In this document: piece after piece, positions 92-15,518 of the stretch | Numbering within the stretch: position 1 is the first letter of the stretch | Layout: every line of letters starts with the position of its first letter | IMG/VR virus record: IMGVR_UViG_3300045125_000101 | Span: 7,823 to 71,822 of that record | Source: a virus | Direction: 5' to 3' (one strand) | DNA: 64,000 nt | Translations under genes and position numbers: made by a program | Notes under the pieces: generated by a model | What the model was told of the DNA's origin: nothing | The model's database searches: none | Seen by the model: only the letters and a program-made list of their open reading frames with translations

Positions 92-329
92 TCACTTATT
101 ACTCACCGTGGCGATTTCTTCGCTGCGGACAAAGTAGCACTTGAGGGTGTCGCTGTTCCAGCCCGTGAACACAAACGCCTTGCCGTCGTATCGCAGCACC
201 TTCTTGGTCAGCTTGGCCACGTCGTCCCAGCCATTCGGCACGTCGAGCGTCAGATACTCACAGGTTGACCTCGGGGCGGTTGGAATAGACGACGCTGATT
301 TCGTTGGGCGAGATGGTGGCGGTTTCCAT
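92..329 (-). CDS. hypothetical protein (one frameshift)
   Basis: METATISPNE...YLTLDVPNGWDDVAKLTKKVLRYDGKAFVFTGWNSD, read on the minus strand; GC-rich codon usage like neighbouring genes. Confidence 0.55.
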
Positions 330-334: not shown

Positions 335-529
335 TTACTCTGACAGGTTTTTATGAAAAGTCAAGCTGCTTGTAGGTCTTTTTACAAGTCGTTGAATAGC
401 AAAGAAATGTCTACGAAGTTCAGGATCAATCGGTGTGCCATGCATTTCTTCAGCATTCCATTCAAGAATCGCACTCAAAGCACATACTTGATGATGCGAA
501 AGTTCAAGCTTGTACTTTTTATTTTTCAT
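335..529 (-). CDS. hypothetical protein
   Basis: ORF 335..562; likely start at MKNKKYKL (529). Confidence 0.55.
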   Translation of the reverse strand: MKNKKYKLELSHHQVCALSAILEWNAEEMHGTPIDPELRRHFFAIQRLVKRPTSSLTFHKNLSE

Positions 530-535
530 TGAAAT

Positions 536-580
536 ATATTGTGCGTGAGTTGGTGTGCGCACCCCACCGTGTGAAACTTA
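536..580 (-). repeat. 45-bp post-stop repeat element, copy 1 (putative pseudoknot)
   Basis: Identical to 913-957; degenerate copy at 11507-11547. Confidence 0.9.
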
Positions 581-872
581 GTCTACTCCGGCGTCCTTGA
601 AGTAACGACCCGCACGGTCATAGATGACAGTCCAGTCGTACTCCACGCTTTGCGGCACAGAGACCGCTGAAATGTGGAAAGTTCTCCGCTCGACCGATGG
701 CGATATTGAGTGCCGTTTCGGCATTGAACGAGTCGCCACGGCTAGTGGCGCACAGGCTATAGCCAAGTCCGACAGTATTGTCCTCGCGCTTAGTGGCGAC
801 GACCACGCCGACCTTTTCACGCCGCCGATTGCGGACATACTGAAAGATAGTGTTGTTAGGAGGATTGCTCAT
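578..872 (-). CDS. hypothetical protein (frameshift near 720)
   Basis: MSNPPNNTIFQYVRN... joined to ...VEYDWTVIYDRAGRYFKDAGVD; own upstream promoter. Confidence 0.6.
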
Positions 873-912
873 AGTATTAATGATGATGTTGGTTTTTATA
901 GAAAAGTCAAGA

Positions 913-957
913 ATATTGTGCGTGAGTTGGTGTGCGCACCCCACCGTGTGAAACTTA
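913..957 (-). repeat. 45-bp post-stop repeat element, copy 2
   Basis: Identical to 536-580. Confidence 0.9.
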
Positions 958-1317
958 CCGAAGGTAAGCGGGACCGTGCTCCGTGAACTTGTCGAGCACA
1001 TTCGGATCCTTCTTCACGTTGCCACGCACGCCATTGGCCACAGGAGCCTTCCACGTACCCTTGAGCAGGTCGCCGCTGGCAATGTCATAGAAGCAATAGA
1101 CCGAGTCAGCTTCGAGCTTATTGGTGAGGCGGCTGACCTGAAACGTCGCCAGCTTGGCATAACGCTTGCCGATGCTTTCCACCATCACGATGGGAGCCTC
1201 GGCGTGCGTGAAGTTCATACGGGTCCAGTAGTCGCTGATCTTCTTGTTGACGCCACGGATGAAATCCGTCAGCGGAATGTCGTTCTTCAGAGCTTGGATG
1301 GCGGTTTCTTTATTCAT
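955..1317 (-). CDS. hypothetical protein
   Basis: Intact ORF MNKETAIQ...PAYLR. Confidence 0.7.
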   Translation of the reverse strand: MNKETAIQALKNDIPLTDFIRGVNKKISDYWTRMNFTHAEAPIVMVESIGKRYAKLATFQVSRLTNKLEADSVYCFYDIASGDLLKGTWKAPVANGVRGNVKKDPNVLDKFTEHGPAYLR

Positions 1318-1507
1318 CGTCAATAAACCTTGTACAGATTTTGTGGGTCAATTTTCGCTGAGTGGTGCCCTGAACAGGATGCTGGTCACAGCTCGAGTTG
1401 TCTGTCCATCACCACACAGAAAAGACGGCACGCCGAAAAATAGTTCCGCCCGCGTGTTTGTTTTACCGTTCATATAGGTGATTTCCATAAAAATGTCAAG
1501 TACAGAG

Positions 1508-1890
1508 TTACCAGTCAAACATAACTGCCTTGCCATTATACCAGCCAATATTTCCAGTATGCAAGTCAGGGAAGATGCCATACTTAAGATACTTGTTGAG
1601 TTTGCGTCTAAGAACTTCCAAAGCAAACCTCAAGTTCTTCTTTCTACAAGTGGCTGAATAACATACTCCTTGCTGAAGAAAATATGTAGGAACGCTGAAA
1701 CTGCATTGGCGTGCGATGTTCAAGAATGAACGCAGGACGCTTGATGACAACGCCAAGTTTCTTGTTGTAGAAACCGTTGACCTTGCGGCTTTGCAGGCTA
1801 TGGGCTTCCACCCCTTGACCATGCTGCCCTTTCAGCAGCAGGTCAAGAACATCCTCGTAATACCAGCGGACACTGGCGTTCAGTTTTTCA
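1508..1890 (-). CDS. small kinase/phosphotransferase-fold protein (frameshifted)
   Basis: VVIKR (VAIK-like), DLHTGN catalytic loop and MFDW (DFG-like); pieces in ORFs 1644..1898 and 1508..1822. Confidence 0.5.
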
Positions 1891-1891
1891 T

Positions 1892-2197
1892 TTACCAATT
1901 GACCGTGGACGGAGCAGCCACTTCCAGAGTGGCCACAGGCGCATCCGCCACAGGCGTCTTGACCGTGGCATACACCAGTTCCTTGCGGCCTCGCCGACTC
2001 TTGGCAGGGTCACGCAGACCAGCCTGCACCACCTCGCCAGCCTCGATGGCCTTCTGAATTCGGCTGTAGATGGTGATGGGCTTGACCTTGTAGGACGTAG
2101 CCTTGCGCAGGTCACGCAAGGTGAAAGTGTCGGGGAAGGTCAGGTTGAAGCCATACTTGATGCGCTTGGCCTTGATGACGGTGCTGGTGTTGCTCAT
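1892..2197 (-). CDS. winged-helix-like DNA-binding protein
   Basis: FTLRDL...TIYSRIQKAIEAGEV...SRRGRKELVY, a wHTH-like pattern with a basic wing. Confidence 0.55.
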   Translation of the reverse strand: MSNTSTVIKAKRIKYGFNLTFPDTFTLRDLRKATSYKVKPITIYSRIQKAIEAGEVVQAGLRDPAKSRRGRKELVYATVKTPVADAPVATLEVAAPSTVNW

Positions 2198-2242
2198 ATG
2201 TTGTGTATGTTGGTTGAAGAAAATAAAAAGTCAAGTCCAGAC

Positions 2243-2434
2243 TTATCGGACCGACTGCTTGGCCTCAAAGGCAACCGCCGCCTCGTTGGCCTTGCGGATG
2301 ATTTCGTTGATGTACTTGGCGCGACCCTCGTAGTCATTCTTCTTGAAGTTCAAGAACGTGTGGTCATCGCCGAGGTTGCGAAGCTCAGAGGCGAGATAAC
2401 CAGCGAGGTAAGGATAGTTAGTGGTGTTGCTCAT
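2243..2434 (-). CDS. hypothetical protein
   Basis: ORF with own promoter and CACGATG start. Confidence 0.7.
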   Translation of the reverse strand: MSNTTNYPYLAGYLASELRNLGDDHTFLNFKKNDYEGRAKYINEIIRKANEAAVAFEAKQSVR

Positions 2435-2473
2435 CGTGCTGTTACTATGATTGATTTTTATAGAAAGTCAAGG

Positions 2474-2818
2474 TCAAACCGCCACCGCCGACTTGGCGGT
2501 GACGATGGCGTCCAGCTTGGCGGCGTCACTCATCTTGATGACCTGACCCGCGTACTTGGGCATCTTCTTGAACACGAAGCTCATCTGCTTGTCACTCAGG
2601 CGACCATACTTGAGTTGAGCCTGAGCCAACGAGGACAGGAACTGGGCATCCACGCCCGTGAAGCCGATGCCGTTGTCGTGGCTGGTGGTCTGGCTGACCT
2701 GCTCGTCCGCCGTCTGGTTCTCCTGATAGATGCGGACCAGCGCCTTCACCGCCCACACAGGATCGGTGGCGAGCTTGGTCTTGACGAAGCTGAGGGTGTC
2801 TTTCTTGGTGGCGTTCAT
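2474..2818 (-). CDS. hypothetical phage protein
   Basis: ORF with own promoter; start MNATKK. Confidence 0.7.
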   Translation of the reverse strand: MNATKKDTLSFVKTKLATDPVWAVKALVRIYQENQTADEQVSQTTSHDNGIGFTGVDAQFLSSLAQAQLKYGRLSDKQMSFVFKKMPKYAGQVIKMSDAAKLDAIVTAKSAVAV

Positions 2819-2862
2819 CGTGAGCATACTATGGCACACGATTTATAAAAAATCAAGAACTA

Positions 2863-3498
2863 TCAGCCATAGCTGTCTAACTTCTTGATAATCACTTCAT
2901 TGCGATTTTTTGAACCTTTCCAATCCTTTTCAGAACACTTGCTTGGAAAAGCACAGACATCATAAATTGAACAGCCTTTGCAAAGCTCTGATAAATAACG
3001 ATTTGGATAAATGCAGGTTGTCTTGCTTACTTCTGCTAGGTTGAATTCACCAGCGCCGCCGCCGAAATAATCGGGGTTGCCAGACCAAGGATACACTACC
3101 CGTGAAGGGTCAAGGCTGGTCTCGTCGGCTGCTGACCCTGACGCTGGCATCGCCGCTGATGCCCTTTCCTTTGGCTTACGCCCACGTTTCTTCTTGGGGG
3201 TATGGGTGGCCTTGCCTTTGACCTCAAGCCTCGGCAAATCGCCTCCATTGGCTTCTACCAGCGACCTTACGTCCTCTGCCGTGAAGCCGTTTTGTAGGTA
3301 CTTCTTGGCTTGTTGCGTAACATATTCTGCCACAAGCTTTTCTTCGCTGCCATATTTCTTTACTACGTCAGCAAACCTGGCCTTGTCTGCAAATGTCTCA
3401 TTACCAGTAAGGTTACAACGCCAATAGAAATAGTTTCCATTTGCGCTGGTTTCAATGCCAGACGGTAGTTTCTTGCGTGGTTGTGCTTTACGAGGCAT
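2863..3498 (-). CDS. hypothetical protein with Cys-rich C-terminus
   Basis: Intact 211-aa ORF; CxYP...CxGCxxxxxCxxxxxC. Confidence 0.75.
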   Translation of the reverse strand: MPRKAQPRKKLPSGIETSANGNYFYWRCNLTGNETFADKARFADVVKKYGSEEKLVAEYVTQQAKKYLQNGFTAEDVRSLVEANGGDLPRLEVKGKATHTPKKKRGRKPKERASAAMPASGSAADETSLDPSRVVYPWSGNPDYFGGGAGEFNLAEVSKTTCIYPNRYLSELCKGCSIYDVCAFPSKCSEKDWKGSKNRNEVIIKKLDSYG

Positions 3499-3535
3499 AA
3501 GCCAAATAAACCATACTATGACCTAAAGGTCAAGA

Positions 3536-4150
3536 TTAAACTTCAAACTCAGACCAATGCTTTTTTGACAAAGTATGACAAGCCCACTTACCGTGATAAT
3601 CATTTGGGCCAACATTTTCCATCATAACGGTTTCTGGCAAGAAACTAAATGGACGATTGCCTACTTTGCTGAAAAACTGTGCTTCGCGACCAAACTCACG
3701 CTTATTAAACTTTTCTACCTTTCCATAGCCTGGATAGCCAGAAATGCAATGATTTGTGCCGTGAAGTTCTGCAAACTGACCACCTAACGGAATAAACAAA
3801 ATACTATCTTGTTCAAACTCTTCACCTAAACGCTTCATTACTGAAAGCAAGTTTCCTTTATTTTCAACATCAGCAATGAAAAAGTATTTTCATCCACTTC
3901 TCTTGCTTCAGGAGTGCCAAAGTTTTCAATGTATGCTCCCTTGATTGCAGTTACGCTGTACCTACCTAAGCTATGAATCTTAGACAGCAACGATGCATTG
4001 CGTTGCATATTTTGGCGATAGGTGTATTTTTTCTCCCTTGCCACAGTCGGGGGCATACCTAAAAGCAGACATAGTGCCACAATCGTGCTTTTCCATGTAT
4101 TGCCAAAGCCTTGACAGTCCAGATTCATTTAAGATTTGAGTAAGCTTCAT
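3536..4150 (-). CDS. conserved large-phage hypothetical protein (frameshifted)
   Basis: MKLTQILNESGLSRL...SAFR...GAYIEN...V-E..F...LGEEFEQDSILF; three ORF fragments join. Confidence 0.65.
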
Positions 4151-4231
4151 ATGCAATAAATAGTTGATGGGTTGTGCTTTATTTGGCCCAATGATGTAGG
4201 TTTTGTCAAAATCGCACCTACGTGTCAAAAA

Positions 4232-4480
4232 TCAAGCCTCCCGCAGGATTTCGGAGGCGTAGGCGTAGAGGGTATTTTGCAGCACCGTGCGCTGCGTGGC
4301 GGTCCACTCGTTGATATGGCGAGTGGTCGTGGTGCTATGACCAGCGGTCTTGTAGACGCCCCACTTGTCGCCGATGGGCAGGTCAAACGAGACGGCAACA
4401 GGGGTCTCGTAGCTGAAGAGCACGGTGCCCTTGCGGGTCACAAGCTCGTGGCAGTTGCTGTTGATTTGGCGGAGTTTCAT
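4232..4480 (-). CDS. hypothetical protein
   Basis: MKLRQINSN...LFSYETPVA; own promoter. Confidence 0.7.
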   Translation of the reverse strand: MKLRQINSNCHELVTRKGTVLFSYETPVAVSFDLPIGDKWGVYKTAGHSTTTTRHINEWTATQRTVLQNTLYAYASEILREA

Positions 4481-5003
4481 CGTGCGTAATAGACTGACAG
4501 CTAAAATAAAAAAAGTCAAGGAAGAATTGGTACTTCGCGAAACAAGTGAAACTCACAGGTTCACCTTCAGAATCAGTCATTATGATCTTATGCCTTCACG
4601 CTCAACTTCAAGGTTTTGATCTCTAGGACTTGAAAGCCATACTCGTCACGATGTTCTTCCCAAGATACAGACATTACTTCATTGGTAGGTTCATTACCAC
4701 ACATGCTATGCTGATATGAGGCAAACATATCCATTATGCTGGATAAGTCTGACAACATCGGCGGAATTGATGAGATCAAGAGCCTCTTGGAGTTTGATTT
4801 TCATTAGTAGTATGTTGGACCATAATCAAGAAAATCAAGGTTTATTTGGCGAAAGTGATGCTAAACAAGCCAGAGCGAACAATCTTCCAGCCCTTGCGCT
4901 GATAGCTTTCAGCAAGCTTGATGCCAGCAATAGTGTCAGTACGAATAGTGATGTGTTTCATACGATGCTTAGACTACCTAAGAAATAAAATAAGTCAAGA
5001 AAA

Positions 5004-5081
5004 TTGTTTGCAATGGCGCGAGCTTTCACGCGCTATTATGGCACAGGGCCATCCTCTCCTTGTCTTTGAGTTCATTGCGAA
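5004..5081 (-). ncRNA. cloverleaf tRNA-like RNA with non-canonical loops
   Basis: Stems GCAATG/CATTGC, CTC/GAG, ATGGC/GCCAT and GCGCG/CGCGC in tRNA order and spacing. Confidence 0.55.
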
Positions 5082-5089
5082 AAAGAACT

Positions 5090-5145
5090 GTTGGTCAAGC
5101 GATGGCATTGAACCATCTTTAATAGACTATTCTATCTCAACCAAC
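5090..5145 (-). ncRNA. 56-nt mini tRNA-like RNA (closing stem, one hairpin, T-arm)
   Basis: GTTGGTTGAG/CTTGACCAAC, ATAGA/TCTAT, GATGG-TTCAATG-CCATC. Confidence 0.5.
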
Positions 5146-5186
5146 AAGAATGAGTATGACTTTTTTATCTAAAAGTCAAGAAAGTA

Positions 5187-5263
5187 TTTGCTCATCCGAT
5201 TCGAACGGATTTTTGTGCAATGCACTATGACCAATCGCCTTGGTACCTCAAGGTTTGAGCAAA
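5187..5263 (-). ncRNA. 77-nt tRNA-like RNA without a recognisable anticodon arm
   Basis: TTTGCTC/GAGCAAA acceptor stem, CCTTG/CAAGG hairpin, perfect T-arm ATCCG-TTCGAAT-CGGAT. Confidence 0.6.
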
Positions 5264-5267
5264 AAAT

Positions 5268-5347
5268 TGGAGCGATGTGAGCCGAACACGCGGCCCGCTT
5301 CTGACGGGAATGTCAGTATGCTTATCGTACATCTACATCAACACCGC
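5268..5347 (-). tRNA. atypical tRNA-Gly(TCC)-like
   Basis: GCGGTGT/ACATCGC, discriminator U, CCA; anticodon stem CTGAC/GTCAG with 6-nt loop ATTCCC; T-stem truncated. Confidence 0.55.
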
Positions 5348-5365
5348 ATAAAAAGAACAAAAATT

Positions 5366-5456
5366 GGTTCATCAAAGCGAGGGAGCCGATCCCTAATCAC
5401 GCTGACCTATGGTTAATTACTCCTTCGGTCACGAGTTCCGCACTAACTTTGATGAA
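5366..5456 (-). ncRNA. 91-nt RNA with a 10-bp terminal stem ending in CCA
   Basis: TTCATCAAAG/CTTTGATGAA+CCA; internal TGACC/GGTCA and AGGGA/TCCCT stems. Confidence 0.6.
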
Positions 5457-5494
5457 AAAGAGAATGACTATTTTTAATTAAAAGTCAAGAAAAT

Positions 5495-5568
5495 TGGTAC
5501 CACCACGGGGAATCGAACCCCGATTTTCGCCGTGAAAGGGCGCTTTCTAACCGTTAGAAGATGGCGGC
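5495..5568 (-). tRNA. tRNA-Glu(TTC)
   Basis: Full cloverleaf, loop CTTTCAC, TTCGATT T-loop, encoded CCA. Confidence 0.95.
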
Positions 5569-5579
5569 ATATCTGAAAA

Positions 5580-5654
5580 TGGAGCCGAGTATCGGACTTG
5601 AACCGATAACCTACTGTTTACAAAACAGTTGCACCGCCATTGTGCTAACTCGGC
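5580..5654 (-). tRNA. tRNA-Thr(TGT)
   Basis: Full cloverleaf, loop TTTGTAA, TTCAAGT T-loop, CCA. Confidence 0.95.
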
Positions 5655-5706
5655 ATCTTAAAAGAACAAGAAGTATGACTTAACTTAAAGAAGAGTCAAG
5701 AAAAAT

Positions 5707-5783
5707 TGGTGGGTCCGGTGGGGTACGATCCCACAGTATTTCGATTAAAAGTCGAAGGCTTTATCCGTTTAAGCTACAGACCC
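5707..5783 (-). tRNA. tRNA-Lys(TTT)
   Basis: Full cloverleaf, loop CTTTTAA, CCA; atypical T-loop ATCGTAC. Confidence 0.92.
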
Positions 5784-5826
5784 ATTAAAAAGAACAAGAA
5801 TAACTATGGACTAAAATTAAGAAATG

Positions 5827-6371
5827 TCAATACTTTTTTGAGTTTTGTGAACCTTTTGTAGTTTCCACCTTTTGGAGATAGACCGCATTTAATCAGAGCT
5901 TGTCTAATTGTTGGCTCGGATTTAATCGCATCAATAGCAGCGGCATCGTCCACTTTATTGCACGATTTTTATTTCTTCCTCTCCAAGTAGGAGTAATACT
6001 ATGGCAGTTCGGGCAAAGAGCAACTAAATTCTGTCGTGAATTATCTTGATGATTTCCGTTGATATGGTCAATCTCAAAAGTCAATAAAGTTCCAAACCAT
6101 TCACTAACTCCACATTTACCACATTTATTTTTTGGTCAAATATTATTTTTTCTCTACGAGCATCACCACCTAATTTTTCAAATGGAGTTTCAGTTAAATA
6201 CTTGACTCTGTTTTCTTCTTTATTTTGGTATCGTCTCGCCGTTCCCTCTGCTTGTTTTCTTCGATATTCATTCCAAGCAGTTGGGTCACTTTTAAGATTT
6301 TCAAGCCACTTTCTGGCGGCTTCTCTTTGCTTTTGTTTTGTTTCTTCTGTTTGTGGTCTTCCTGTTTTCAT
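5827..6371 (-). mobile_element. free-standing HNH homing endonuclease inside the tRNA cluster (frameshifted)
   Basis: EIDHINGNHQDNSRQNLVALCPNCHS HNH motif; NUMOD3-like N-terminus (QTEETKQKQRE). Confidence 0.85.
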
Positions 6372-6436
6372 ACTTGAACCTAGTTTTAAGTTTCAAGTAT
6401 AAATATAAACAATTTCAACAAAACATCAATATTTTT

Positions 6437-6622
6437 TCAAAACTGAATGCATTCTTGCCACTTGAAGTTTGGCATACCATCGCTGCCATAAACATACACA
6501 GCGTGACCATTAAGCAATGCTTCATTACGCATAGCTCTCTTGCCAAGCTCATATCCAATCACGACACAAAAGAACATATTTGCCAATATAACAAGAACGG
6601 TCAATAACTTGTCTGTTTTCAT
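6437..6622 (-). CDS. small membrane protein
   Basis: MKTDKLLTVLVILANMFFCVVIG hydrophobic segment. Confidence 0.6.
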   Translation of the reverse strand: MKTDKLLTVLVILANMFFCVVIGYELGKRAMRNEALLNGHAVYVYGSDGMPNFKWQECIQF

Positions 6623-6627
6623 AAAAA

Positions 6628-6703
6628 TGGTGGGCCGGAAGGGATTCGAACCCCTAACCAAAGGATTATGAGTCCTCTGCTCTGACCGTTGAGCTACCAG
6701 CCC
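6628..6703 (-). tRNA. tRNA-Ile2/Met(CAT)
   Basis: Full cloverleaf GGGCTGG...ACCA, loop CTCATAA; body resembles lysidine-type Ile2 tRNAs. Confidence 0.92.
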
Positions 6704-6861
6704 AATAAATTATTCGCCGTAGATGTATGACTTATAAACTTTATCGTCAAGTTCAAAAGTCATAATATCTGCGCCATTGAAGCCTTCTTCAATGTCAAGA
6801 AACTTAACCTTCTTGACGCTGATCTTGATGCCGTCAACAAGAACAAATCCAGTACGTTTCT

Positions 6862-7053
6862 TCACTTTGCTGGCCTCCACATAAAAATCTCATTCTTGTC
6901 AAATGACTTGCCAGCAAGCCAGTTTTCAAAACTGACTACACTATCCTCATCAATGCCCTTGAGATACTCTTTGAGAGTGTTCTCAGATAGAATCTGCTCA
7001 GAGTTGAGTTCAAGATTCTTGGGCACAATCGTGATGGTCTGATACGTCTTCAT
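6862..7053 (-). CDS. hypothetical protein
   Basis: MKTYQTIT...; own promoter. Confidence 0.6.
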   Translation of the reverse strand: MKTYQTITIVPKNLELNSEQILSENTLKEYLKGIDEDSVVSFENWLAGKSFDKNEIFMWRPAK

Positions 7054-7085
7054 TGTGCAATCAGTATGATGATGGAATAAAAAAG

Positions 7086-7283
7086 TCAAATAATATCGTC
7101 AATATCTGAGCCACGGCACTTTAGTTCAAACATAGCATCGTCAGCTTGATTGAAAATGCTGTTGATGCGATTAACAACATCGCTGGGAGAAATATATCTG
7201 TCAATGTTGTCCAACTCAACAAGATACTCTTGAATGCGAGCCTTGATGTCCAAAGCTTGCTTGATTTCTTCGTAGGTCTTCAT
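7086..7283 (-). CDS. hypothetical protein
   Basis: MKTYEEIKQ...; abuts the upstream gene. Confidence 0.6.
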   Translation of the reverse strand: MKTYEEIKQALDIKARIQEYLVELDNIDRYISPSDVVNRINSIFNQADDAMFELKCRGSDIDDII

Positions 7284-7284
7284 T

Positions 7285-7482
7285 TTAGTTGACGCAAACG
7301 GCGTTGACCTTGAAGTCATTACCGTCGTTTTCAAATGTCTTGCCATCGAAATAGCCATAGCAAGGCTCATACTTGACTTTGGAAAATCTATTGCCCTCAT
7401 CATCAGCGGCATAAATCATTTCCGCGTTGGGATACTTCTTCTGGATTTCCTGCAACTGGGCGATATAGTTACTGAGTTTCAT
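7285..7482 (-). CDS. hypothetical protein
   Basis: MKLSNYIAQLQ...YAADDEGN; own promoter. Confidence 0.7.
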   Translation of the reverse strand: MKLSNYIAQLQEIQKKYPNAEMIYAADDEGNRFSKVKYEPCYGYFDGKTFENDGNDFKVNAVCVN

Positions 7483-7546
7483 GGTGTATGAGTATGCTTA
7501 GATTCTATAGAAAGTCAAGCTGAAAGTGGCTTTTTTTCAATAAAAG

Positions 7547-7625
7547 TGGCGCTCTTGGCGGGACTCGAACCCACATTAATCCAGTTATGCGCGTTCTGTT
7601 TAGAAGACAGAGCCAATACAAGAGC
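7547..7625 (-). tRNA. D-armless tRNA-Arg(TCT) with long variable region
   Basis: GCTCTTG/CAAGAGC+G+CCA; TCTGT-CTTCTAA-ACAGA; GTGGG-TTCGAGT-CCCGC; only 7 nt between acceptor and anticodon stems. Confidence 0.75.
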
Positions 7626-7671
7626 GTGATGTTGAAAATAAGTATGCTGGATACTTAGATAAAGTCAAGCA

Positions 7672-8139
7672 TTACCAGCTTGACTGATAAGTAAAATCAA
7701 ACTTCTCAAACTTGGGCGACAGCACCTTATCAAGCACATTGATGGTATGCTCCAAGTCCTTTTTGTACCAACTGTCGATTTCTGTGCTGCCGAAGAAGAA
7801 CCCAGAAGTGGGCGTCAGAATGTCTGATGCACCGTCAGCGTCGCCAGCCTCCAGCTTGACCAAAGCAGCACGGCACTCGTTTCGCAGTTCAGCCAGCTTA
7901 TCACGGCTGACGTAATAGCGGGCGCAGTTGTCCTCGCCGCTCTGGACGTTCTGGACAAACCAGTTGTGGATGGCGTTGGCCTTGCGCCAGTAGCCCACCG
8001 TGACGTTGACCGTCATTGAACGTTCAGCGTCACTTTCGTCGAGGTTAAGAAGGCCAAGGATATTGCCAAAGTCCTTGTCCTTGTCGTGGTCGTAGCCCGA
8101 GACGAAACGCTCGGCGTTGAGAAACATGTCAAGTCCCAT
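7672..8139 (-). CDS. conserved phage hypothetical protein
   Basis: MGLDM...VGYWRKANAIHNWFVQNVQ pattern; intact ORF. Confidence 0.85.
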   Translation of the reverse strand: MGLDMFLNAERFVSGYDHDKDKDFGNILGLLNLDESDAERSMTVNVTVGYWRKANAIHNWFVQNVQSGEDNCARYYVSRDKLAELRNECRAALVKLEAGDADGASDILTPTSGFFFGSTEIDSWYKKDLEHTINVLDKVLSPKFEKFDFTYQSSW

Positions 8140-8558
8140 AATGCTTAAGAGAGTAGCAGATGATTAAATAAAGTCAAGGTTTTTTCACCCTTTTTTCTGT
8201 CACCAACTTTGGCGCAGGCATTGGCTGCGTTGGAGCAGGAGATGGCAGAACAGGATGATTTACCTTGAGCAAGTTGCCGTTGTAAATCTGGAGTTTCATA
8301 GGAAGAAAGAAGAACCAACACATAAATATTCTATCTTCCTACAAAGTCAATATTTTTGCAAAAAAATCTTAAAGATTTTTGATTTCTAAATCTTCTTGAT
8401 GTTGTCGTAATCGATCTCAAACGAATCTTCAAGATAAGAAGAGTCGCTTGGCGAGATCAGCATCGTGAGTGAGTTTAATGGCTTCTGCTTCGCTGTCTGC
8501 TTGTATCAGCACATAGCCATACTCACGCCAGGTGACAGGAACCTTATAAGTATTCATA

Positions 8559-8879
8559 TCAAGCAGAGATGTTGTCAATAGCCGTCTTGGCAAAAGAAAG
8601 CTTGGACTCATAATCGCCAGTAAACTTCTTGCCCTTATAAACATACAATGCAAAATGAGTAGCGTGCTTGAGCGGCAGATTGCAGGCATACTTGTGCTTG
8701 CAATACCTGCTTGTCTTGACATTCTTATAAAACTGCTTGCGATTACGGTTGCGACCAAACGGACGCACAATCAGTCCAGTTCCATTAAGCAGACGGCGAG
8801 CAAAACTCAGAAAGTTATTGCCCTGCTCGTCGTTGGAGATAAAGCCGACAAAGTTGTCGGAGTATGTGGTGTTATTCAT
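8559..8879 (-). CDS. hypothetical protein
   Basis: Intact ORF with own promoter. Confidence 0.65.
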   Translation of the reverse strand: MNNTTYSDNFVGFISNDEQGNNFLSFARRLLNGTGLIVRPFGRNRNRKQFYKNVKTSRYCKHKYACNLPLKHATHFALYVYKGKKFTGDYESKLSFAKTAIDNISA

Positions 8880-8921
8880 TATGATAGTAGTATGCTGAAG
8901 ATTTTATAGAAAGTCAAGCTC

Positions 8922-9305
8922 TCAGTTGAAAACGTCATCCATCGCATTGATTTGGATGTTGCCATCAGGGCTCGTCCAACTCAACTGCTCGCACTTGCGC
9001 TTGGCCTTGCCAACGCTGACCACATCGTCATAGATATAGTCCATAAAGCTACGTAGGATGCGACGCAGCGTGGCGTGGTTGGTGTTGGCGGGGATTTGCG
9101 TGCAATAGCTGCCGTCTTCAACCTCAACCCAGTCGTGCCCGTCGTGACGATACACATCAAACCGCAGCAGGTTCACGTCGTCAGGGTTTTCGGGGTCATA
9201 GTCCCCGTCAAAACCCTCGTGGAGGTTGACCCAGTCGATCCGCACATTGCCTCGGATGATCGTGGGCAGCTTATGTTCATTGATTGAGAAACTATCGTTC
9301 TTCAT
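8922..9305 (-). CDS. hypothetical protein
   Basis: Intact ORF, own promoter, CACGATG start. Confidence 0.75.
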   Translation of the reverse strand: MKNDSFSINEHKLPTIIRGNVRIDWVNLHEGFDGDYDPENPDDVNLLRFDVYRHDGHDWVEVEDGSYCTQIPANTNHATLRRILRSFMDYIYDDVVSVGKAKRKCEQLSWTSPDGNIQINAMDDVFN

Positions 9306-9343
9306 CGTGAATATACTCTACCAGGTTTCTATAAAAAGTCAAG

Positions 9344-9378
9344 AAAAAACCCCTTGGGGGGTTGTCCAAGGGGTTGAT
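9344..9378 (-). terminator. Rho-independent terminator after the tRNA
   Basis: AACCCCTTGG/CCAAGGGGTT hairpin followed by a T-run on the minus strand. Confidence 0.75.
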
Positions 9379-9452
9379 TGGGAGCAGGGAACCGAATTGA
9401 ACGATTGTCTCTTCATTATGAGCGAAGCGTGCTACCTTTACACCACCCTGCC
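9379..9452 (-). tRNA. tRNA with CAT anticodon (Met-like, atypical body)
   Basis: GGCAGGG/CCCTGCT, loop CTCATAA, TTCAATT T-loop, discriminator C, CCA. Confidence 0.85.
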
Positions 9453-9737
9453 GTAAAATTGTTTATTCCACTATCTATGATTTTCCATTCAACCACAGCC
9501 ATCGATTTTTGTCAAGCGGAATCTATTTTTTGTCGCTTGTTTTCTTACCCACCATTACTTTACCTGCTTCTGTTTTTATCTTTGTACCGTCGCTTGTATT
9601 ATTCTGGCGGCGCGAAAGTGCGCACCGATGGTTCATCAAAGGGTTGCTTTTCTATCCTATGTTATTTAAAGAACACTAACCACTATACCGATATATATTC
9701 AATAGTCAATAGAAAACTTCAAGATTTTTTACTTTTT

Positions 9738-10097
9738 TTAAGCGACCTTGAGTTCTACCTCGACGCTCTTCTTGCCCACAGACAGCATCCAGCGTTCTGG
9801 ATGCTTTGCCAGCGGCGTGAAATAATCCTTGGGCGTGGGAATGAACCCGCAGTCCTCTTGAACGTGCTGCTCGGCGATCATCTTGACGGGGATGCTCTGG
9901 CCCGCCGAGTTGGTCACGGCGTGCCCGAACTTCTCTACCGCCCATTGAATGCCTGCGCTGTGATGGCGCAAGGCACGATAGGTCCAATCGCCCGTATATG
10001 CCTTGGTTTCGTCGAACCAGTCGTGGATGGCGACATAATCCTGCCACTTGCCGCCCCACTTCTTGACCGTAGATTCAGCGTGCTTGAGAGGAGTCAT
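9738..10097 (-). CDS. DUF6915-like protein
   Basis: PLKHAES..KKWGG..DY.AIHDWFDETKA...RALRHH..GI...EQHV.EDCG. Confidence 0.7.
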   Translation of the reverse strand: MTPLKHAESTVKKWGGKWQDYVAIHDWFDETKAYTGDWTYRALRHHSAGIQWAVEKFGHAVTNSAGQSIPVKMIAEQHVQEDCGFIPTPKDYFTPLAKHPERWMLSVGKKSVEVELKVA

Positions 10098-10109
10098 ACA
10101 AGTAATGTA

Positions 10110-10442
10110 TCAGGACTTTTCGTTTTCGTCAATAACCAAATCATCGCTGTCATAGTCGCCATCAACGCGAGAAGTATACCATTCTTGCGACGACGCCTTC
10201 TTGTTCACCAGGTCGTAGGTGATTTCGTCGCCATATTCGCTGCCATCACCCGCGCCGCTATATTCATACACTTCCCACGCCCAACTTTCAACCTCGCCCG
10301 CAATGGCAGAATTATAATCGGGGTAAGTGCTGATATACAGACAGCCCTCGTCATTGCCGCCGCTGAAGTTCAGCATAATCTGCTTGATGCCAGCAGCAAC
10401 AGCCTTGTCGTAGATTTCCTTCTTGAGTGGTTGGATTTCCAT
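10110..10442 (-). CDS. DUF6878-like acidic protein
   Basis: GI..I...FSGGNDEG pattern; adjacent to the DUF6915-like gene. Confidence 0.5.
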   Translation of the reverse strand: MEIQPLKKEIYDKAVAAGIKQIMLNFSGGNDEGCLYISTYPDYNSAIAGEVESWAWEVYEYSGAGDGSEYGDEITYDLVNKKASSQEWYTSRVDGDYDSDDLVIDENEKS

Positions 10443-10500
10443 AGTTTTTTAAGTTAGAATAGTAGAGTAGCAGTTTTTATAAAAAAGTCAAGGTCTTTCT

Positions 10501-10740
10501 TCAATACCTGACCTTGGCAGTTTCAACGTTGATATTCTTCCAGCCGTATGAATCAACCTTGATAAGAATGTATTCAAGAGTATTATCATACCCAATAGAG
10601 TCTGTAATATACTCATATGCTCTTACATAATCTTTTTCAAGGTCTGTGATTGTCTTACTCTCATCATCGTGAGTATAAAAGAAGTTCATATCAAAACGCG
10701 AATCAGATTCGTCTTTGATGTTCAGATGATAAATCTTCAT
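10501..10740 (-). CDS. hypothetical protein
   Basis: Intact ORF overlapping the upstream stop. Confidence 0.6.
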   Translation of the reverse strand: MKIYHLNIKDESDSRFDMNFFYTHDDESKTITDLEKDYVRAYEYITDSIGYDNTLEYILIKVDSYGWKNINVETAKVRY

Positions 10741-11006
10741 ACCAGTTCCTTCATAAACGGATGATATTTTATCTTATGCCGATAATATGTAGTGCTGGCA
10801 ACTTTACCTTGTGCAGTATGATCAGCAGTCCAATATTCGTCCTTGTATTTGATAAGTGCGTGCGTTGCCTTGCCAAGTCGATTTAGAGATTCAAGAATAG
10901 TGTTCTTGATATTCTCAGCATCAGTTGAAGCAAACTCATACTTTTCTGTATGAATAGGCGTTTGAGCACTATCAATAATAAGGATTTTAACGGTGTTTTG
11001 TACCAT
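10737..11006 (-). CDS. hypothetical protein
   Basis: Intact ORF. Confidence 0.6.
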   Translation of the reverse strand: MVQNTVKILIIDSAQTPIHTEKYEFASTDAENIKNTILESLNRLGKATHALIKYKDEYWTADHTAQGKVASTTYYRHKIKYHPFMKELV

Positions 11007-11013
11007 ATTTTAA

Positions 11014-11202
11014 TCAGTTCTTCTTGAATAGGCGGAGACCTTGATCTCCATATCCCTTGAACGAGCCCTTGTTGTCGTATGTGCGATTGTCATTTACACG
11101 GCTTACAACATTGCCTTTGGCGTCGCTATAAACCTTGGTATTGCCCTGCTGTTGAGTAAACCCAACAACCTGTCCCTTTTCGTTTTTGATATAGTCTGGC
11201 AT
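11014..11202 (-). CDS. hypothetical protein with beta-hairpin repeats
   Basis: NEKGQVVG / DAKGNVVS / DNKGSFKG repeats. Confidence 0.65.
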   Translation of the reverse strand: MPDYIKNEKGQVVGFTQQQGNTKVYSDAKGNVVSRVNDNRTYDNKGSFKGYGDQGLRLFKKN

Positions 11203-11206
11203 AAAA

Positions 11207-11464
11207 TCAAATCACATCACAATACTTCCAAACGTCGTCGGGAATCTCGTCCCGCACTTCCGTATCAAGTTCGTAAATCTTCTTCATTGCGCCGATGCGG
11301 TCGCCAGCGTGTATGAGATTAGCAATCTTGAGAAGGTCAAGATAGTCACTTGTCTGAACCTTCATCATAGCCACATCGCCAAGCCACAGCTTGTGGCAGC
11401 GATTGAACCGATTGATGGCAACTTCGTAAACCTTGGCAGAGGCAGTTTCGTCAGTTAGTTTCAT
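11207..11464 (-). CDS. hypothetical protein
   Basis: Own promoter, CACGATG start. Confidence 0.7.
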   Translation of the reverse strand: MKLTDETASAKVYEVAINRFNRCHKLWLGDVAMMKVQTSDYLDLLKIANLIHAGDRIGAMKKIYELDTEVRDEIPDDVWKYCDVI

Positions 11465-11506
11465 CGTGGAATACTCTAAACGAGGTTAATAAAAAGTCCA
11501 GAAAAA

Positions 11507-11547
11507 GTGAGCGTGAACTGGTATGCGCTCCCCACCGTGTGAAATCA
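11507..11547 (-). repeat. post-stop repeat element, copy 3 (degenerate)
   Basis: TTTCACACGGTGGGGAGCGCATACCAGTTCACGCTCAC directly after a TGA stop. Confidence 0.8.
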
Positions 11548-11760
11548 AACCGCCGTCGCCAGACGCACGGGACGACCAACAGCGTCGTCGAAGACATAGT
11601 TGACAGGCTCGTCGGCTTGCGCCGCACGGCTGTCTGTCGGCACCCACCAGCGAGACAGCAACTCGCGCCCAGCCTTTTCTGCCTCGGTCTGAGTGGCGAA
11701 ACGCAGAGCATTCGTCGCCCACTTGCCATCGACGCAAACTTCAGTTTTCCAAGATTTCAT
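11545..11760 (-). CDS. hypothetical protein
   Basis: MKSWKTEVCVDGKWATNALRFAT...; own promoter. Confidence 0.7.
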   Translation of the reverse strand: MKSWKTEVCVDGKWATNALRFATQTEAEKAGRELLSRWWVPTDSRAAQADEPVNYVFDDAVGRPVRLATAV

Positions 11761-11790
11761 AATGGTATGTTGGCAGTTTTTATAGAAAAG

Positions 11791-12072
11791 TCAAGTCAAG
11801 AATGAATGCCCACCAGTGCCGAGCGACTCAGGAAACTCGTCGTCGTCATAGCTCTCGACGGTCGTAGGATACGACCCATTCTTCTTCTGATACGCTCTGA
11901 AGAAGGTGGACAAGTCGCAGTCCTCTTCAAGGAAGAGGCGAGTGCCGCGCTTGTTCTTGTAGGAATAGCCGCTGATGTCGTCAACAGTCAGACCAACATC
12001 CTTGAGGTCAGACGGAGTAACCTCCAGCCAACCGTGACCTGGATCATTGTGCTTAATAAACGTAGCGTTCAT
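11791..12072 (-). CDS. hypothetical phage protein
   Basis: DPGHGWL...SY......LFLEEDCD. Confidence 0.75.
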   Translation of the reverse strand: MNATFIKHNDPGHGWLEVTPSDLKDVGLTVDDISGYSYKNKRGTRLFLEEDCDLSTFFRAYQKKNGSYPTTVESYDDDEFPESLGTGGHSFLT

Positions 12073-12274
12073 TGAGTAGAAGTGTGTTGAAAAATTAAAG
12101 AAAGTCGAGATTATTCGGAGGCCAAAATGCTGATTATCTCTGTCCCCCGCTCAAACAAGTTTCGTTCAACAAGGTCAGGGTCAGCGCCATTTAGTTCCGA
12201 TGGAGTGAATATGACAATGGCATAGCCAGCGTCACGCAGTTCATCGATGCTGCATTCGTACATTGTTTTCATAA

Positions 12275-12520
12275 TTAGATTTTCTTCTCCCAACCAAATC
12301 CAGCACACACATAAGTTTCGCTGTCAATCGTCACTTCATCATCCACGCTCATGGAGCGCAGACGCTTGCCAGAAATCCATTCAGAGCCATCCACATGATT
12401 GCATTGACGAAACACAACCTCCAGCGCGTCCAGCACATCAGTACCAGAAGGAATGAGTTCCGAAGGAAACTCAAACGTGTCAGTCGAACGAAACGCCTTG
12501 TAAGCAACGTTGATCTTCAT
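12275..12520 (-). CDS. YodL-like hypothetical protein
   Basis: N......RSMSVDD.V......Y.CAGFGW pattern. Confidence 0.5.
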   Translation of the reverse strand: MKINVAYKAFRSTDTFEFPSELIPSGTDVLDALEVVFRQCNHVDGSEWISGKRLRSMSVDDEVTIDSETYVCAGFGWEKKI

Positions 12521-12612
12521 CGTGCAGATATCCTGAATTGAAAATTAAAGAAAGTCGAGAAGAAAAGCGGTGCAGGCCGGATACCACTCACAACCTGCAC
12601 CGCCCCAGTGAT

Positions 12613-14004: not shown

Positions 14005-14040
14005 ATTTGTACTATGCTACACTTTTTATCTAAAGTAAAG

Positions 14041-14295: not shown

Positions 14296-14352
14296 TGTGC
14301 AGTCAGTATTTCAGATTTTTATAGAAAGTCCAGCAAAAAGTGCGTGTATTTT

Positions 14353-14365
14353 TATCAAGCACTTA
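14353..14365. promoter_or_regulatory. IHF-consensus site
   Basis: TATCAAGCACTTA matches WATCAANNNNTTR. Confidence 0.55.
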
Positions 14366-15517: not shown

Positions 15518-15518
15518 A

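What the first reader, a model, noticed from the sequence alone, without database searches (positions are those of the whole stretch)
536..957. Post-stop 3' element that folds as an H-type pseudoknot, three copies with covariation
A 45-bp element is identical at 536-580 and 913-957 and degenerate at 11507-11547. Each copy starts at the stop codon of a minus-strand early gene. After an 8-9 nt spacer the RNA reads GGUG-GG-GWGCG-CA-YACC-6nt-CGCWC. GGUG pairs with YACC and GWGCG with CGCWC in a-b-a'-b' order, which is a pseudoknot. Copy 3 swaps U-A for A-U in stem 2 and G-C for G-U in stem 1, so the structure is kept while the sequence changes. Stop plus 8 nt plus pseudoknot is the geometry of retroviral readthrough signals, but readthrough is in frame with the next gene only for copy 1. 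A 3' exonuclease block or terminator role is at least as likely (inference).
Basis: partly seen in the sequence, partly recalled or inferred. Interest (0 to 1): 0.72.

Follow-up and report, generated by a model that had tools for sequence, protein, structure and literature searches.

The report
Phage RNA pseudoknot at gene boundaries
The three repeats are real copies of an apparently undescribed 35-nt RNA pseudoknot that sits just after stop codons in many phages, including cultured Mycobacterium, Gordonia and Corynebacterium phages; its fold is well supported, its job is unknown, and it is not a stop-codon readthrough signal.

Summary
Observation confirmed. Two identical 45-bp copies (536-580, 913-957) and one diverged copy (11504-11548) lie on the minus (sense) strand, each directly after a stop codon.

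The H-type pseudoknot reading is strongly supported. Pattern and covariance-model searches found about 60 distinct family members in about 120 viral and metagenomic loci, and in cultured actinophages (Gaia, Faith1, Onyinye, Indlulamithi, Imvubu, BFK20, HippoPololi). On an unbiased MAFFT alignment of 54 sequences, 99.2% of cells pair. Five of nine pairs show compensatory double changes, in both stems. The helical junction is invariant: loop 1 GG, inner stem 2 GCG/CGC, CA, and A before stem 2's 3' strand.

Readthrough is rejected. The stop-to-stem spacer varies from 3 to 22 nt, and only 3 of 41 downstream ORFs are in frame and open.

There is no Rfam match and no paper. No true copy was found in bacterial genomes, so the element looks phage-restricted.

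In this phage the element occupies the terminator slot just upstream of early promoters. It also marks gene-cassette breakpoints, as PeSLs do in T4-like phages.

My best guess (about 0.4) is a transcript-boundary or 3'-end element. A factor- or ligand-binding regulatory RNA is the main rival. Earlier scan notes describe analogous stop-anchored pseudoknots in other phages; identity with this family was not shown.

The parts
536..580 (-). Pseudoknot copy 1, including the stop codon TAA (580-578). S1 5' strand 568-565 (GGUG). L1 564-563 (GG). S2 5' strand 562-558 (GUGCG). L2 557-556 (CA). S1 3' strand 555-552 (CACC). L3 551-546. S2 3' strand 545-541 (CGCAC).
   Evidence: CM hit 539-573, 55 bits. 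Pairing scheme supported.
913..957 (-). Pseudoknot copy 2, identical to copy 1, including the stop TAA (957-955) of gene A. S1 is 945-942 with 932-929. S2 is 939-935 with 922-918.
   Evidence: CM hit 916-950, 55 bits.
11504..11548 (-). Pseudoknot copy 3, diverged, after stop TGA (11547-11545). S1 is 11536-11533 (GGUG) with 11523-11520 (UACC). S2 is 11530-11526 (GAGCG) with 11513-11509 (CGCUC). It is followed by ACUUUUUC.
   Evidence: CM hit 11507-11541, 56.3 bits.
883..910 (-). Sigma-70-type early promoter 7 nt downstream of copy 2 (TTGACT, 16 nt, CATCAT). It drives gene B.
11473..11500 (-). Degenerate early promoter after copy 3 (TGGACT, 16 nt, TAGAGT). It drives the gene at 11207-11464.
   Evidence: Read from the sequence. 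Same layout as the promoter family.
955..1317 (-). Gene A (120 aa, unknown function), whose stop abuts copy 2. Its homologues in relatives L004-L009 are followed directly by the promoter, with no pseudoknot.
578..872 (-). Gene B, flanked by the two identical copies. It is frameshifted in this record relative to its homologues. The site after gene B carries a pseudoknot in all relatives examined.
335..529 (-). Gene C (64 aa). It starts 11 nt after copy 1 with no promoter or Shine-Dalgarno sequence. It is a cassette that is present or absent among close relatives, lying exactly between the pseudoknot and the next promoter.
11545..11760 (-). Gene upstream of copy 3 (71 aa, unknown function).

Best explanation
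Shown. The element is a cis-acting RNA on the sense (minus) strand. It is transcribed as the first ~45 nt after a stop codon and folds into a compact H-type pseudoknot. Stem 1 has 4 bp, extendable to 7-8 bp. Loop 1 is GG. Stem 2 has 5 bp. The junction is CA. Loop 3 is 4 to about 38 nt and ends in A. It belongs to a widespread family that so far appears only in phages.

Inferred. It works as a transcript-boundary (3'-end) element. Once the terminating ribosome has left, the knot forms and acts as a barrier. It either defines and protects the 3' end of the upstream message against 3'-to-5' decay, or it stops or insulates read-through transcription before the next promoter or ribosome-binding site. 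The invariant junction nucleotides are read as tertiary contacts (base triples) that make the knot mechanically robust, or as a site for a conserved host factor.

DNA-level by-product (comparison shown, mechanism inferred). The conserved element plus the neighbouring early promoter serves as a homology junction at which small gene cassettes are gained and lost, as with PeSLs of T4-like phages.
For: Fold.
- 54 distinct sequences aligned by MAFFT: 99.2% of cells paired, 5 of 9 pairs with double compensatory changes, 0-1 of 500 shuffles as good, and slid controls at 14-73%.
- New stem variants were found by CM search, not by the pattern. Stem 1: GAUG/UAUC, UGUG/CACA, GGAG/UUCC, AGUG/UACU. Stem 2: UCGCG/CGCGA, CCGCG/CGCGG.
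- Stem 1 extensions covary: CCACGGU/ACCGUGG, CCCUAGGU/ACCUAGGG, UUGAGGU/ACCUCAA.
- 42 G-U pairs at one position favour the sense strand.

Position.
- The upstream co-directional ORF ends 3-22 nt before stem 1 in 41 of 41 scorable cases.
- In 29 of 59 distinct members a promoter lies between the knot and the next gene, so those knots can only belong to the upstream transcript.
- A canonical hairpin-plus-U terminator occupies the same slot at 9375-9348, directly before TTTTC-TTGAC.

Cassette junction.
- Homology with relatives L103, L151, L125 and L023 ends at the 3' edge of copy 1 (about 538-540). In L103 and L023 it resumes at the promoter (365), so gene C is an indel exactly there.
- Gene A is followed by the knot here but not in L004-L009.
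- The two copies in one genome are more alike than orthologous copies between genomes.
Against:
- Any stable hairpin would do for a plain 3' barrier. An invariant junction shared by 35% GC jumbo phages and 65% GC actinophages, and absent from bacterial genomes, points to a more specific partner.
- In 20 of 59 members the knot lies 0-6 nt, or up to about 35 nt, upstream of a Shine-Dalgarno sequence, which is the layout of a 5' regulatory element.
- There is no U-tract in that class (mean 1.35 T in the 10 nt after stem 2). The terminator scan does not flag the window copies.
- Only 3 of about 40 early genes in this region carry the element. Cultured actinophages carry one strong copy per genome. 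It is therefore not general punctuation.
- Closeness to the stop codon may simply reflect very short intergenic spacers. Junctions without the knot read TAAGTTC-TTGACT.
Confidence: 0.4

Rival explanations
1. A regulatory aptamer-like pseudoknot. The conserved junction binds a small molecule or a conserved host or phage factor (RNA polymerase as with HK022 put RNA, a ribonuclease, the ribosome, or a repressor). Through that binding it controls termination or translation of the downstream gene.
For: - The architecture is typical of pseudoknot riboswitches. The junction core is invariant, the stems covary freely, and loop 3 varies in length, including a 34-nt insert in HippoPololi.
- In 20 of 59 members the 3' strand of stem 2 abuts or overlaps the Shine-Dalgarno sequence, e.g. 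CGCGC-AGGAGG and CGCGGGGAGG.
- In the AT-rich class a U-rich run follows.
- Distribution is phage-restricted, with one copy per cultured actinophage genome, within or beside replication-gene clusters in Gaia and Imvubu.
Against: - The flanking genes are heterogeneous and of unknown function, so there is no gene association of the kind that identifies riboswitch ligands.
- In 29 of 59 members a promoter separates the knot from the next gene.
- No known riboswitch or other Rfam family matches, even at E up to 10.
- No partner protein was identified.
Confidence: 0.25
2. An RNA processing element. It would be either a new small self-cleaving ribozyme or a recognition site for a host endoribonuclease that cuts early transcripts at gene boundaries.
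For: - It is small, with conserved core nucleotides in a pseudoknot, and lies between genes in phage early regions, where hammerhead, twister and pistol ribozymes are also found (background knowledge).
- Several members are followed directly by a start codon with no promoter and no Shine-Dalgarno sequence (copy 1, L021, L083, L084). In a phage that otherwise uses near-leaderless messages, these would benefit from a new 5' end.
Against: - No match to any ribozyme family in Rfam.
- The distance from knot to start codon varies (1-20 nt).
- No cleavage data.
Confidence: 0.1
3. An expressed decoy RNA directed against a host defence or toxin (an anti-defence RNA, in the manner of pseudo-ToxI or RNA anti-CRISPRs).
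For: - It is phage-restricted, conserved across unrelated phages of one host phylum, located in early regions, and has the size and fold class of type III antitoxin RNAs (background knowledge).
- A host CRISPR array carries a spacer against it. This shows only that it is a conserved phage target.
Against: - No host-encoded counterpart was found in the exact-pattern scan of one genome per 185,579 species, nor by CM in 155 actinobacterial genomes.
- Copies are single, not tandem.
Confidence: 0.07
4. A purely DNA-level element with no RNA function: a recombination or mobility junction, or a protein-binding site next to promoters.
For: - Presence is sporadic at otherwise syntenic junctions. Two identical 45-bp direct repeats flank gene B. 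Homology repeatedly breaks at the edge of the element.
- It lies 7-10 bp upstream of the -35 box in the promoter class.
Against: - Compensatory changes in two interleaved helices, with loop 3 varying from 4 to about 38 nt, do not fit a duplex DNA protein site.
- G-U pairs are strand-specific.
- The orientation is always that of the flanking genes.
Confidence: 0.06
5. A translational recoding signal: stop-codon readthrough or frameshifting stimulated by a pseudoknot 8-9 nt after the stop.
For: - In the window the geometry matches known stimulators: spacer 8-9 nt and a compact H-type knot.
- Copy 1 is in frame with gene C.
Against: - The spacer is 3-22 nt across the family, and about 60 nt in Faith1.
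- TAA, TGA and TAG are all used.
- Readthrough runs into a stop after 1-65 codons. Only 3 of 41 are in frame and open into the next ORF.
- Promoters often lie in the path.
- Gene A homologues end at the same residue without the element.
- No slippery heptamer upstream (reading).
Confidence: 0.02

Closest known systems
PeSLs (promoter-early stem-loops) of T4-like myoviruses (Arbiol et al. 2010, PMC2839356; Comeau et al. 2014, PMC4122927)
   Same: - A composite of a conserved structured element followed directly by a sigma-70-type early promoter.
- Several near-identical copies lie among small ORFan genes.
- Copies coincide with insertion, deletion and replacement breakpoints between close relatives.
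   Different: - The structured part here is a pseudoknot with an invariant core, not a simple GC stem-loop with a U-run.
- The same knot recurs in unrelated phages, without the promoter and with Shine-Dalgarno sequences instead. PeSL sequences are lineage-specific.
- This phage was not shown to be T4-like; its helicase is only 21-33% identical to that of any catalogued phage.
Recoding pseudoknots (MuLV gag-pol readthrough; luteovirus and retrovirus -1 frameshift knots)
   Same: - A compact H-type knot with short loop 1.
- An A-ending loop 3.
- An 8-9 nt spacer after the stop codon in the window copies.
   Different: - No in-frame or shifted ORF to express.
- The spacer is not conserved.
- A promoter is often in the path.
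- It is a bacterial virus with separate genes.
Small H-type pseudoknot riboswitches (preQ1-I, SAM-II/V, guanidine-III)
   Same: - About 35 nt in size.
- The conserved nucleotides are concentrated at the helical junction, and the stems covary.
- In one class the 3' strand of stem 2 abuts the Shine-Dalgarno sequence.
   Different: - No Rfam match.
- The conserved nucleotides differ. Any resemblance to guanidine-III rests on my memory of its sequence, and the ACGR motif would lie in a different place.
- No consistent downstream gene family.
REP elements and other 3' stem-loops that stabilise upstream cistrons in bacterial operons (background knowledge)
   Same: - About 35-45 nt, dispersed and repeated.
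- Located just after stop codons inside co-directional gene arrays.
- The proposed role is as a barrier to 3' exonucleases.
   Different: - REPs are imperfect palindromic hairpins, chromosomal and mobilised by RAYT transposases.
- This element is a pseudoknot. It was not found in bacterial chromosomes searched.
Phage T4 gene 32 mRNA leader pseudoknot, and HK022 put RNAs
   Same: They are phage-encoded cis-acting structured RNAs that bind a protein (gp32; host RNA polymerase) to control expression.
   Different: - No sequence similarity.
- The gene 32 knot is tied to one gene.
- The put RNAs are two stem-loops downstream of the early promoters.
- No partner was identified here.

Membership tests
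H-type RNA pseudoknot (structural class) | Two helices in a-b-a'-b' order, each supported by compensatory base changes. | tested here: met
   Stem 1 has 3 of 4 pairs with double changes plus G-C/G-U at the fourth. Stem 2 has 2 of 5 pairs with double changes. 99.2% of cells pair. The alignment was made by MAFFT and was not fitted to the structure.
H-type RNA pseudoknot (structural class) | Loop lengths sterically compatible with the stems. | tested here: met
   Loop 1 is 2 nt over a 5-bp stem 2. Loop 3 is at least 4 nt over a 4-bp stem 1. This was judged against general pseudoknot geometry, not modelled in 3D.
Readthrough / frameshift stimulator | A fixed short spacer (about 5-9 nt) between the recoding site and the knot. 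| tested here: not met
   Spacer is 3-22 nt, with modes at 7-9 and 15-16. It is about 60 nt in Faith1.
Readthrough / frameshift stimulator | A downstream coding sequence in the frame reached by recoding. | tested here: not met
   Only 3 of 41 are in frame and open. Promoters intervene.
Intrinsic (rho-independent) terminator | A GC-rich stem followed immediately by a U-tract. | tested here: not met
   The window copies are not flagged by the terminator scan. Mean T in the 10 nt after stem 2 is 1.35 in the Shine-Dalgarno class and 5.3 in the AT-rich class, usually after a 2-5 nt gap. Only copy 3 and a few relatives (CGCUC-AC-U5-7) come close.
PeSL (T4-like promoter-early stem-loop) | A structured element directly upstream of a conserved early promoter, repeated within one genome. 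| tested here: met
   Copies 2 and 3 lie 7-9 nt before the -35 box. There are 3 copies in this record, 4 in G002 and 5 in G011.
PeSL (T4-like promoter-early stem-loop) | Association with indels or replacements between close relatives. | tested here: met
PeSL (T4-like promoter-early stem-loop) | A simple stem-loop terminator, lineage-specific in sequence, in T4-like phages. | tested here: not met
   The element is a pseudoknot, not a hairpin. The same core occurs in unrelated phages, including siphovirus-type actinophages.
Any Rfam 15 family (riboswitches, ribozymes, phage RNAs) | A covariance-model match. | tested here: not met
   No hit at gathering thresholds on the window. No hit at E up to 10 on 480-1010. 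No hit at E up to 1 at the element in six related loci.
Riboswitch (functional class) | Consistent association with genes of one pathway, and ligand binding. | tested here: inconclusive
   The 20 flanking proteins scanned (Pfam or PHROGs) gave no functional annotation and no shared family. Annotated records name some neighbours: small terminase, DNA polymerase/primase, oxidoreductase, lipoprotein. Ligand binding cannot be tested with these tools.

The most novel reading that the evidence does not exclude
The knot is a new class of phage-only functional RNA whose invariant junction binds a specific partner. That partner could be a host enzyme such as RNA polymerase or a ribonuclease, or a small molecule. 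The knot could also be a new minimal ribozyme. Phages of Actinobacteria, and AT-rich freshwater giant phages whose host is unknown, would use it to control or process their early messages. It would then be a new riboswitch, ribozyme or host-hijacking RNA class, not a passive structural barrier.
Probability: 0.3. Interest if true: 0.85.

Novelty: new variant of a known kind. Interest (0 to 1): 0.62.

Why it matters
Very few conserved RNA structures specific to phages have been described. This one has unusually clean support: both stems covary and the junction is invariant across genomes from about 35% to about 70% GC. It is absent from Rfam and from the searchable literature.

It is also easy to test. 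It occurs as a single copy in plaque-forming phages of Mycobacterium smegmatis (Gaia, the Faith1 group, Onyinye, Indlulamithi, Imvubu), Gordonia and Corynebacterium. For mycobacteriophages, engineering and RNA-seq methods are well established (background knowledge).

If it is a boundary element, it extends the PeSL concept (regulatory cassettes that drive gene shuffling) beyond T4-like phages and beyond hairpins. It would also offer a compact, portable insulator part. If it binds a host factor or ligand, it would be a new regulatory RNA class.

For annotation, it marks real gene ends and cassette junctions in ORFan-rich early regions.

Tried and rejected
- Megablast of 12 kb and blastn of the 45-mer against catalogued phages found nothing. 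Close relatives exist only in metagenomes. The cultured-phage members surfaced only with GC-rich family members as query.
- The first collection pattern (TTCACACGGTGGGGNGCGC) was too specific and gave 0 hits.
- A pattern with stem 2 left free gave 27 extra hits, all chance matches in coding DNA with no downstream complement. This serves as a background estimate of about 0.4 chance hits for the 18-base pattern.
- The genome-contig scan gave 15 hits and none is a family member. Most fall in a conserved actinobacterial coding sequence, with the variable bases at third codon positions.
- A CM search of 155 actinobacterial genomes gave two weak hits, both lacking the stem 1 partner.
- Nested-structure folding gave no signal above shuffles. 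This is expected for a pseudoknot and is not evidence against it.
- MAFFT misaligned members with long loop 3. They were left out of the counted alignment. One misaligned row (L197) remains in A5 and accounts for the non-paired cells in stem 2.
- Resemblance of GGUGCGCAUA to the XerC arm of E. coli dif (from memory) was rejected. There is no XerD arm, and the variable base covaries with a distant partner.
- An alternative 5' hairpin (UUCAC-ACG-GUGGG) is possible only in this phage's class and is not conserved across the family.
- Pfam and PHROGs scans of 20 flanking proteins gave no functional annotation and no shared family.
- Paper searches by sequence and by topic found nothing on this motif.
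- The search for a partner protein shared by knot-bearing phages was not completed, although whole contigs were fetched.

Full report
**1. The observation**

The 45-mer occurs exactly twice in the window, at 536-580 and 913-957 (+ coordinates), with none expected in shuffles. A third copy at 11504-11548 differs at 10 of 45 positions. The whole 138-kb viral record that holds the window has no further copies.

The genes here run on the minus strand. Read on that strand, each copy begins with a stop codon: TAA 580-578, TAA 957-955 and TGA 11547-11545. A spacer of 8-9 nt follows, then GGUG-GG-GWGCG-CA-YACC-6 nt-CGCWC.

The copies are not an assembly duplication. Their flanks differ, and four related metagenomic contigs keep the same two-copy layout about 376 nt apart.

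Within the window alone the case for a fold is thin. There are only two distinct sequences, and nested folding scores no better than shuffles.

**2. The setting**

The window is an early-type region of an uncultured large phage. The IMG/VR record is estimated at 64% complete. Its helicase is only 21-33% identical to anything in catalogued phages.

The region is packed with small minus-strand genes. Many have their own near-identical promoter, TTGACTTTTCTATAAAAAC followed by a -10 box a few nt before the ATG.
- Copy 2 lies between the stop of gene A (955-1317) and such a promoter (910-883).
- Copy 3 lies between the stop of a 71-aa gene and a degenerate promoter.
- Copy 1 lies between the stop of gene B and the ATG (529) of gene C, with no promoter between.

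Where no element is present, the stop codon abuts the promoter (TAAGTTC-TTGACT). At 9375-9348 a canonical hairpin-plus-U terminator sits in the same slot, directly before TTTTC-TTGAC.

**3. A large family**

Homologues of gene A in related viral contigs are followed directly by the promoter, so copy 2 is a gain specific to this lineage.

A collection scan with the 18 specified bases CACGGTGGGGNGCGCANACC gave these results:
- 18 viral loci;
- 110 metagenomic stretches;
- 15 bacterial-genome stretches.

A control pattern with stem 2 left free gave 27 further viral hits. None had a downstream complement. The background for the 18-base pattern is therefore below one hit.

The pattern did not constrain the region downstream of the match. 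In 68 of the 74 distinct sequences that carry a downstream CGCNC, the N base pairs with the variable base of the pattern: C-G 28, U-A 25, A-U 15.

All bacterial-genome hits were non-members, mostly one conserved actinobacterial coding sequence.

**4. Covariation in both stems**

I built a covariance model from 32 members and ran it on whole related records and on all fetched loci. It found diverged copies that the pattern could not.
- Stem 1 variants: GAUG/UAUC, GAUG/CAUC, UGUG/CACA, GGAG/UUCC, AGUG/UACU.
- Stem 2 variants: UCGCG/CGCGA, CCGCG/CGCGG, AAGGCG/CGCCUU.

I aligned 54 distinct sequences with MAFFT, which was not fitted to any structure, and counted pairs on that alignment.

| Measure | Result |
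|---|---|
| Cells that pair | 99.2% |
| Pairs with changes on both sides | 5 of 9 (3 in stem 1, 2 in stem 2) |
| Sixth pair | alternates G-U (42) and G-C (12) |
| Shuffles reaching the observed values | 0-1 of 500 |
| Partners slid by 1-3 columns | 14-73% paired |

The many G-U pairs place the structure on the sense strand.

In some lineages stem 1 is extended to 6-8 bp with different sequences: CCACGGU/ACCGUGG, CCCUAGGU/ACCUAGGG, UUGAGGU/ACCUCAA.

The invariant positions are loop 1 GG, the three inner pairs of stem 2 (GCG/CGC), the junction CA (UA in two members), and the A before the 3' strand of stem 2. Loop 3 ranges from 4 to about 38 nt.

The H-type pseudoknot is therefore well established. 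Its conserved nucleotides cluster at the helical junction.

**5. Distribution**

A strict structural pattern finds 59 distinct knots in 120 fetched loci. They fall into three layouts.
- Followed by a promoter 7-10 nt downstream: 29 members. These are AT-rich giant-phage contigs like this one, plus a GC-rich group with TTGACA.
- Followed by a Shine-Dalgarno sequence 0-35 nt downstream: 20 members.
- Other layouts, including a direct start codon with neither promoter nor Shine-Dalgarno sequence: 10 members.

Giant-phage contigs carry 3-5 copies.

The family also occurs in cultured actinophages:
- Mycobacterium phages Gaia, the Faith1 group (about 25 genomes), Onyinye/Leopard/Aikoy, Indlulamithi and Imvubu;
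- Corynebacterium phage BFK20;
- Gordonia phage HippoPololi and relatives.

Of the five cultured-phage genomes scanned whole with the model, three had a single copy. Gaia and HippoPololi had one best copy plus weaker matches that I did not inspect.

No true copy turned up in 155 actinobacterial genomes, nor in the exact-pattern scan of one genome per 185,579 species. One metagenomic contig (L121) is a CRISPR array of seven 32-nt repeats whose second spacer is the knot itself.

There is no Rfam match, and no paper was found by sequence or by topic.

**6. What it is not**

*Readthrough or frameshifting.* The stop-to-stem spacer is 3-22 nt, and about 60 nt in Faith1. All three stop codons occur. 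Readthrough ends after 1-65 codons. Only 3 of 41 downstream ORFs are in frame and open. Promoters lie in the path. Gene A homologues end at the same residue without the element.

*A classical intrinsic terminator.* There is no U-tract in the Shine-Dalgarno class, and the window copies are not flagged by the scan.

*A duplex-DNA protein site.* Two interleaved covarying helices with a variable loop do not fit one.

*A riboswitch with a recognisable regulon.* The 20 flanking proteins I scanned gave no functional annotation and no shared family. Where annotated records do name a neighbouring gene, the functions differ from phage to phage.

**7. What it most likely does**

The one constant is position: a few nucleotides after the end of a co-directional gene. 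In half the members a promoter separates the knot from the next gene. There the knot can only belong to the upstream transcript, and it occupies the slot that a normal terminator occupies elsewhere in this genome.

I therefore favour a transcript-boundary role (confidence about 0.4). The knot would be a robust barrier that defines or protects the upstream 3' end, or insulates the next promoter or ribosome-binding site.

The invariant junction, the restriction to phages and the low copy number argue for a specific partner. I give substantial weight to the rivals:
- a factor- or ligand-binding regulatory RNA (0.25);
- a processing site or ribozyme (0.1);
- a decoy RNA (0.07).

None of these could be tested without RNA data.

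**8. DNA-level consequence**

Comparison with close relatives shows that homology ends at the 3' edge of copy 1 (about 538-540). In L103 and L023 it resumes at the next promoter (365). Gene C is therefore a cassette lying exactly between knot and promoter. It is present in the window, L021 and L152, absent in L103 and L023, and replaced in L151 and L125.

The two copies within one genome resemble each other more than orthologous copies resemble each other between genomes. This matches the behaviour described for PeSLs in T4-like phages (PMC2839356, PMC4122927), with a pseudoknot in place of the stem-loop.

**9. Earlier scan notes**

Notes from this scan describe stop-anchored or RBS-adjacent pseudoknot linkers in other phages (e1-3410594, e1-3284592, e1-3287705). 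Sequence look-ups found no overlap with this family. They are analogues, not shown to be the same element.

**10. Verdict**

The fold is confirmed and generalised to a new, widespread, phage-restricted RNA family. Readthrough is rejected. The function is open, with a boundary or 3'-end role most likely.

Noticed in passing
window 578-872 and 92-329 (minus strand): Gene B and gene D are each split over two reading frames relative to intact homologues in L023. Gene B residues 1-69 lie in one frame (872-666) and residues 67-93 in another (676-596). Gene D residues 1-18 lie at 329-276 and residues 16-74 at 277-101. These are either assembly indels or two adjacent pseudogenes next to the repeats.
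   Followed up: partly
L121 (metagenome contig MTKY01024687.1), minus strand: This is a CRISPR array of seven 32-nt repeats (GTCGCCCCCCGCGCGGGGGCGTGGATTGAAAC, which from memory looks like a type I-C repeat). Its second spacer is the 34-nt pseudoknot sequence. The array is a possible handle on the host of the GC-rich family members.
   Followed up: partly
window 335-529 and relatives L103, L023, L021, L152: Gene C (64 aa, AT-rich, no promoter, no Shine-Dalgarno sequence) is a presence/absence cassette. In L021 and L095 its TTG start coincides with the position of the -35 TTGAC box, as if the cassette had been inserted at the promoter.
   Followed up: partly
G000 about 4,000-19,600 (window 346-11,776 and upstream): There are at least 11 copies of a strongly conserved early promoter, TTGACTTTTCTATAAAAAC(TGCCATAGT). 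The start codon follows about 9-12 nt after the -10 box, so the messages are near-leaderless. The first 16 kb of the window is also 41-49% GC, against 32-40% for the rest.
   Followed up: partly
window 9348-9375 (minus strand): A canonical terminator (10-bp stem AACCCCTTGG/CCAAGGGGTT plus a T-run) runs straight into TTGAC of the next promoter. This is a classical terminator-promoter composite in the same genome.
   Followed up: no
G011 (IMGVR_UViG_3300027754_000067) 13.0-43.4 kb; loci L210, L211: Another giant-phage contig carries five diverged knots. Four are followed by a conserved GCGGCAAACA motif (TTTTGCGGCAAACAC in three) ahead of a TTGACTC box. This looks like a lineage-specific control sequence paired with the knot.
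   Followed up: no
L113 1223-1300 and 1732-1800; L213 (Gordonia phage HippoPololi) 362-445: In some GC-rich members the knot is followed by a second small hairpin, CCCC-N4-7-GGGG, before the Shine-Dalgarno sequence. In HippoPololi loop 3 holds a 34-nt insert.
   Followed up: no
L079, L087, L096, L115, L117, L120, L131, L136, L157, L177, L063 (Acidimicrobiales MAG): A separate conserved ~65-nt sequence (GGAGTGTCAGGACACGGTGGGGAGCGCATACCGGGTGGGTGAGGCCTGAC...) shares the 20-nt core but lacks the stem 2 partner. ORF cover is ambiguous (80-306 aa). Its nature is unknown.
   Followed up: partly
window, whole: Only 4 ORFs of 250 aa or more occur in 64 kb under the standard code. Reading a stop codon as sense opens more frames of 100 aa or more (134 under the standard code; 287 with TGA read through, 209 with TAG, 242 with TAA), but I did not test whether any of these is real. 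The region appears to be an exceptionally long run of small genes plus tRNAs.
   Followed up: partly
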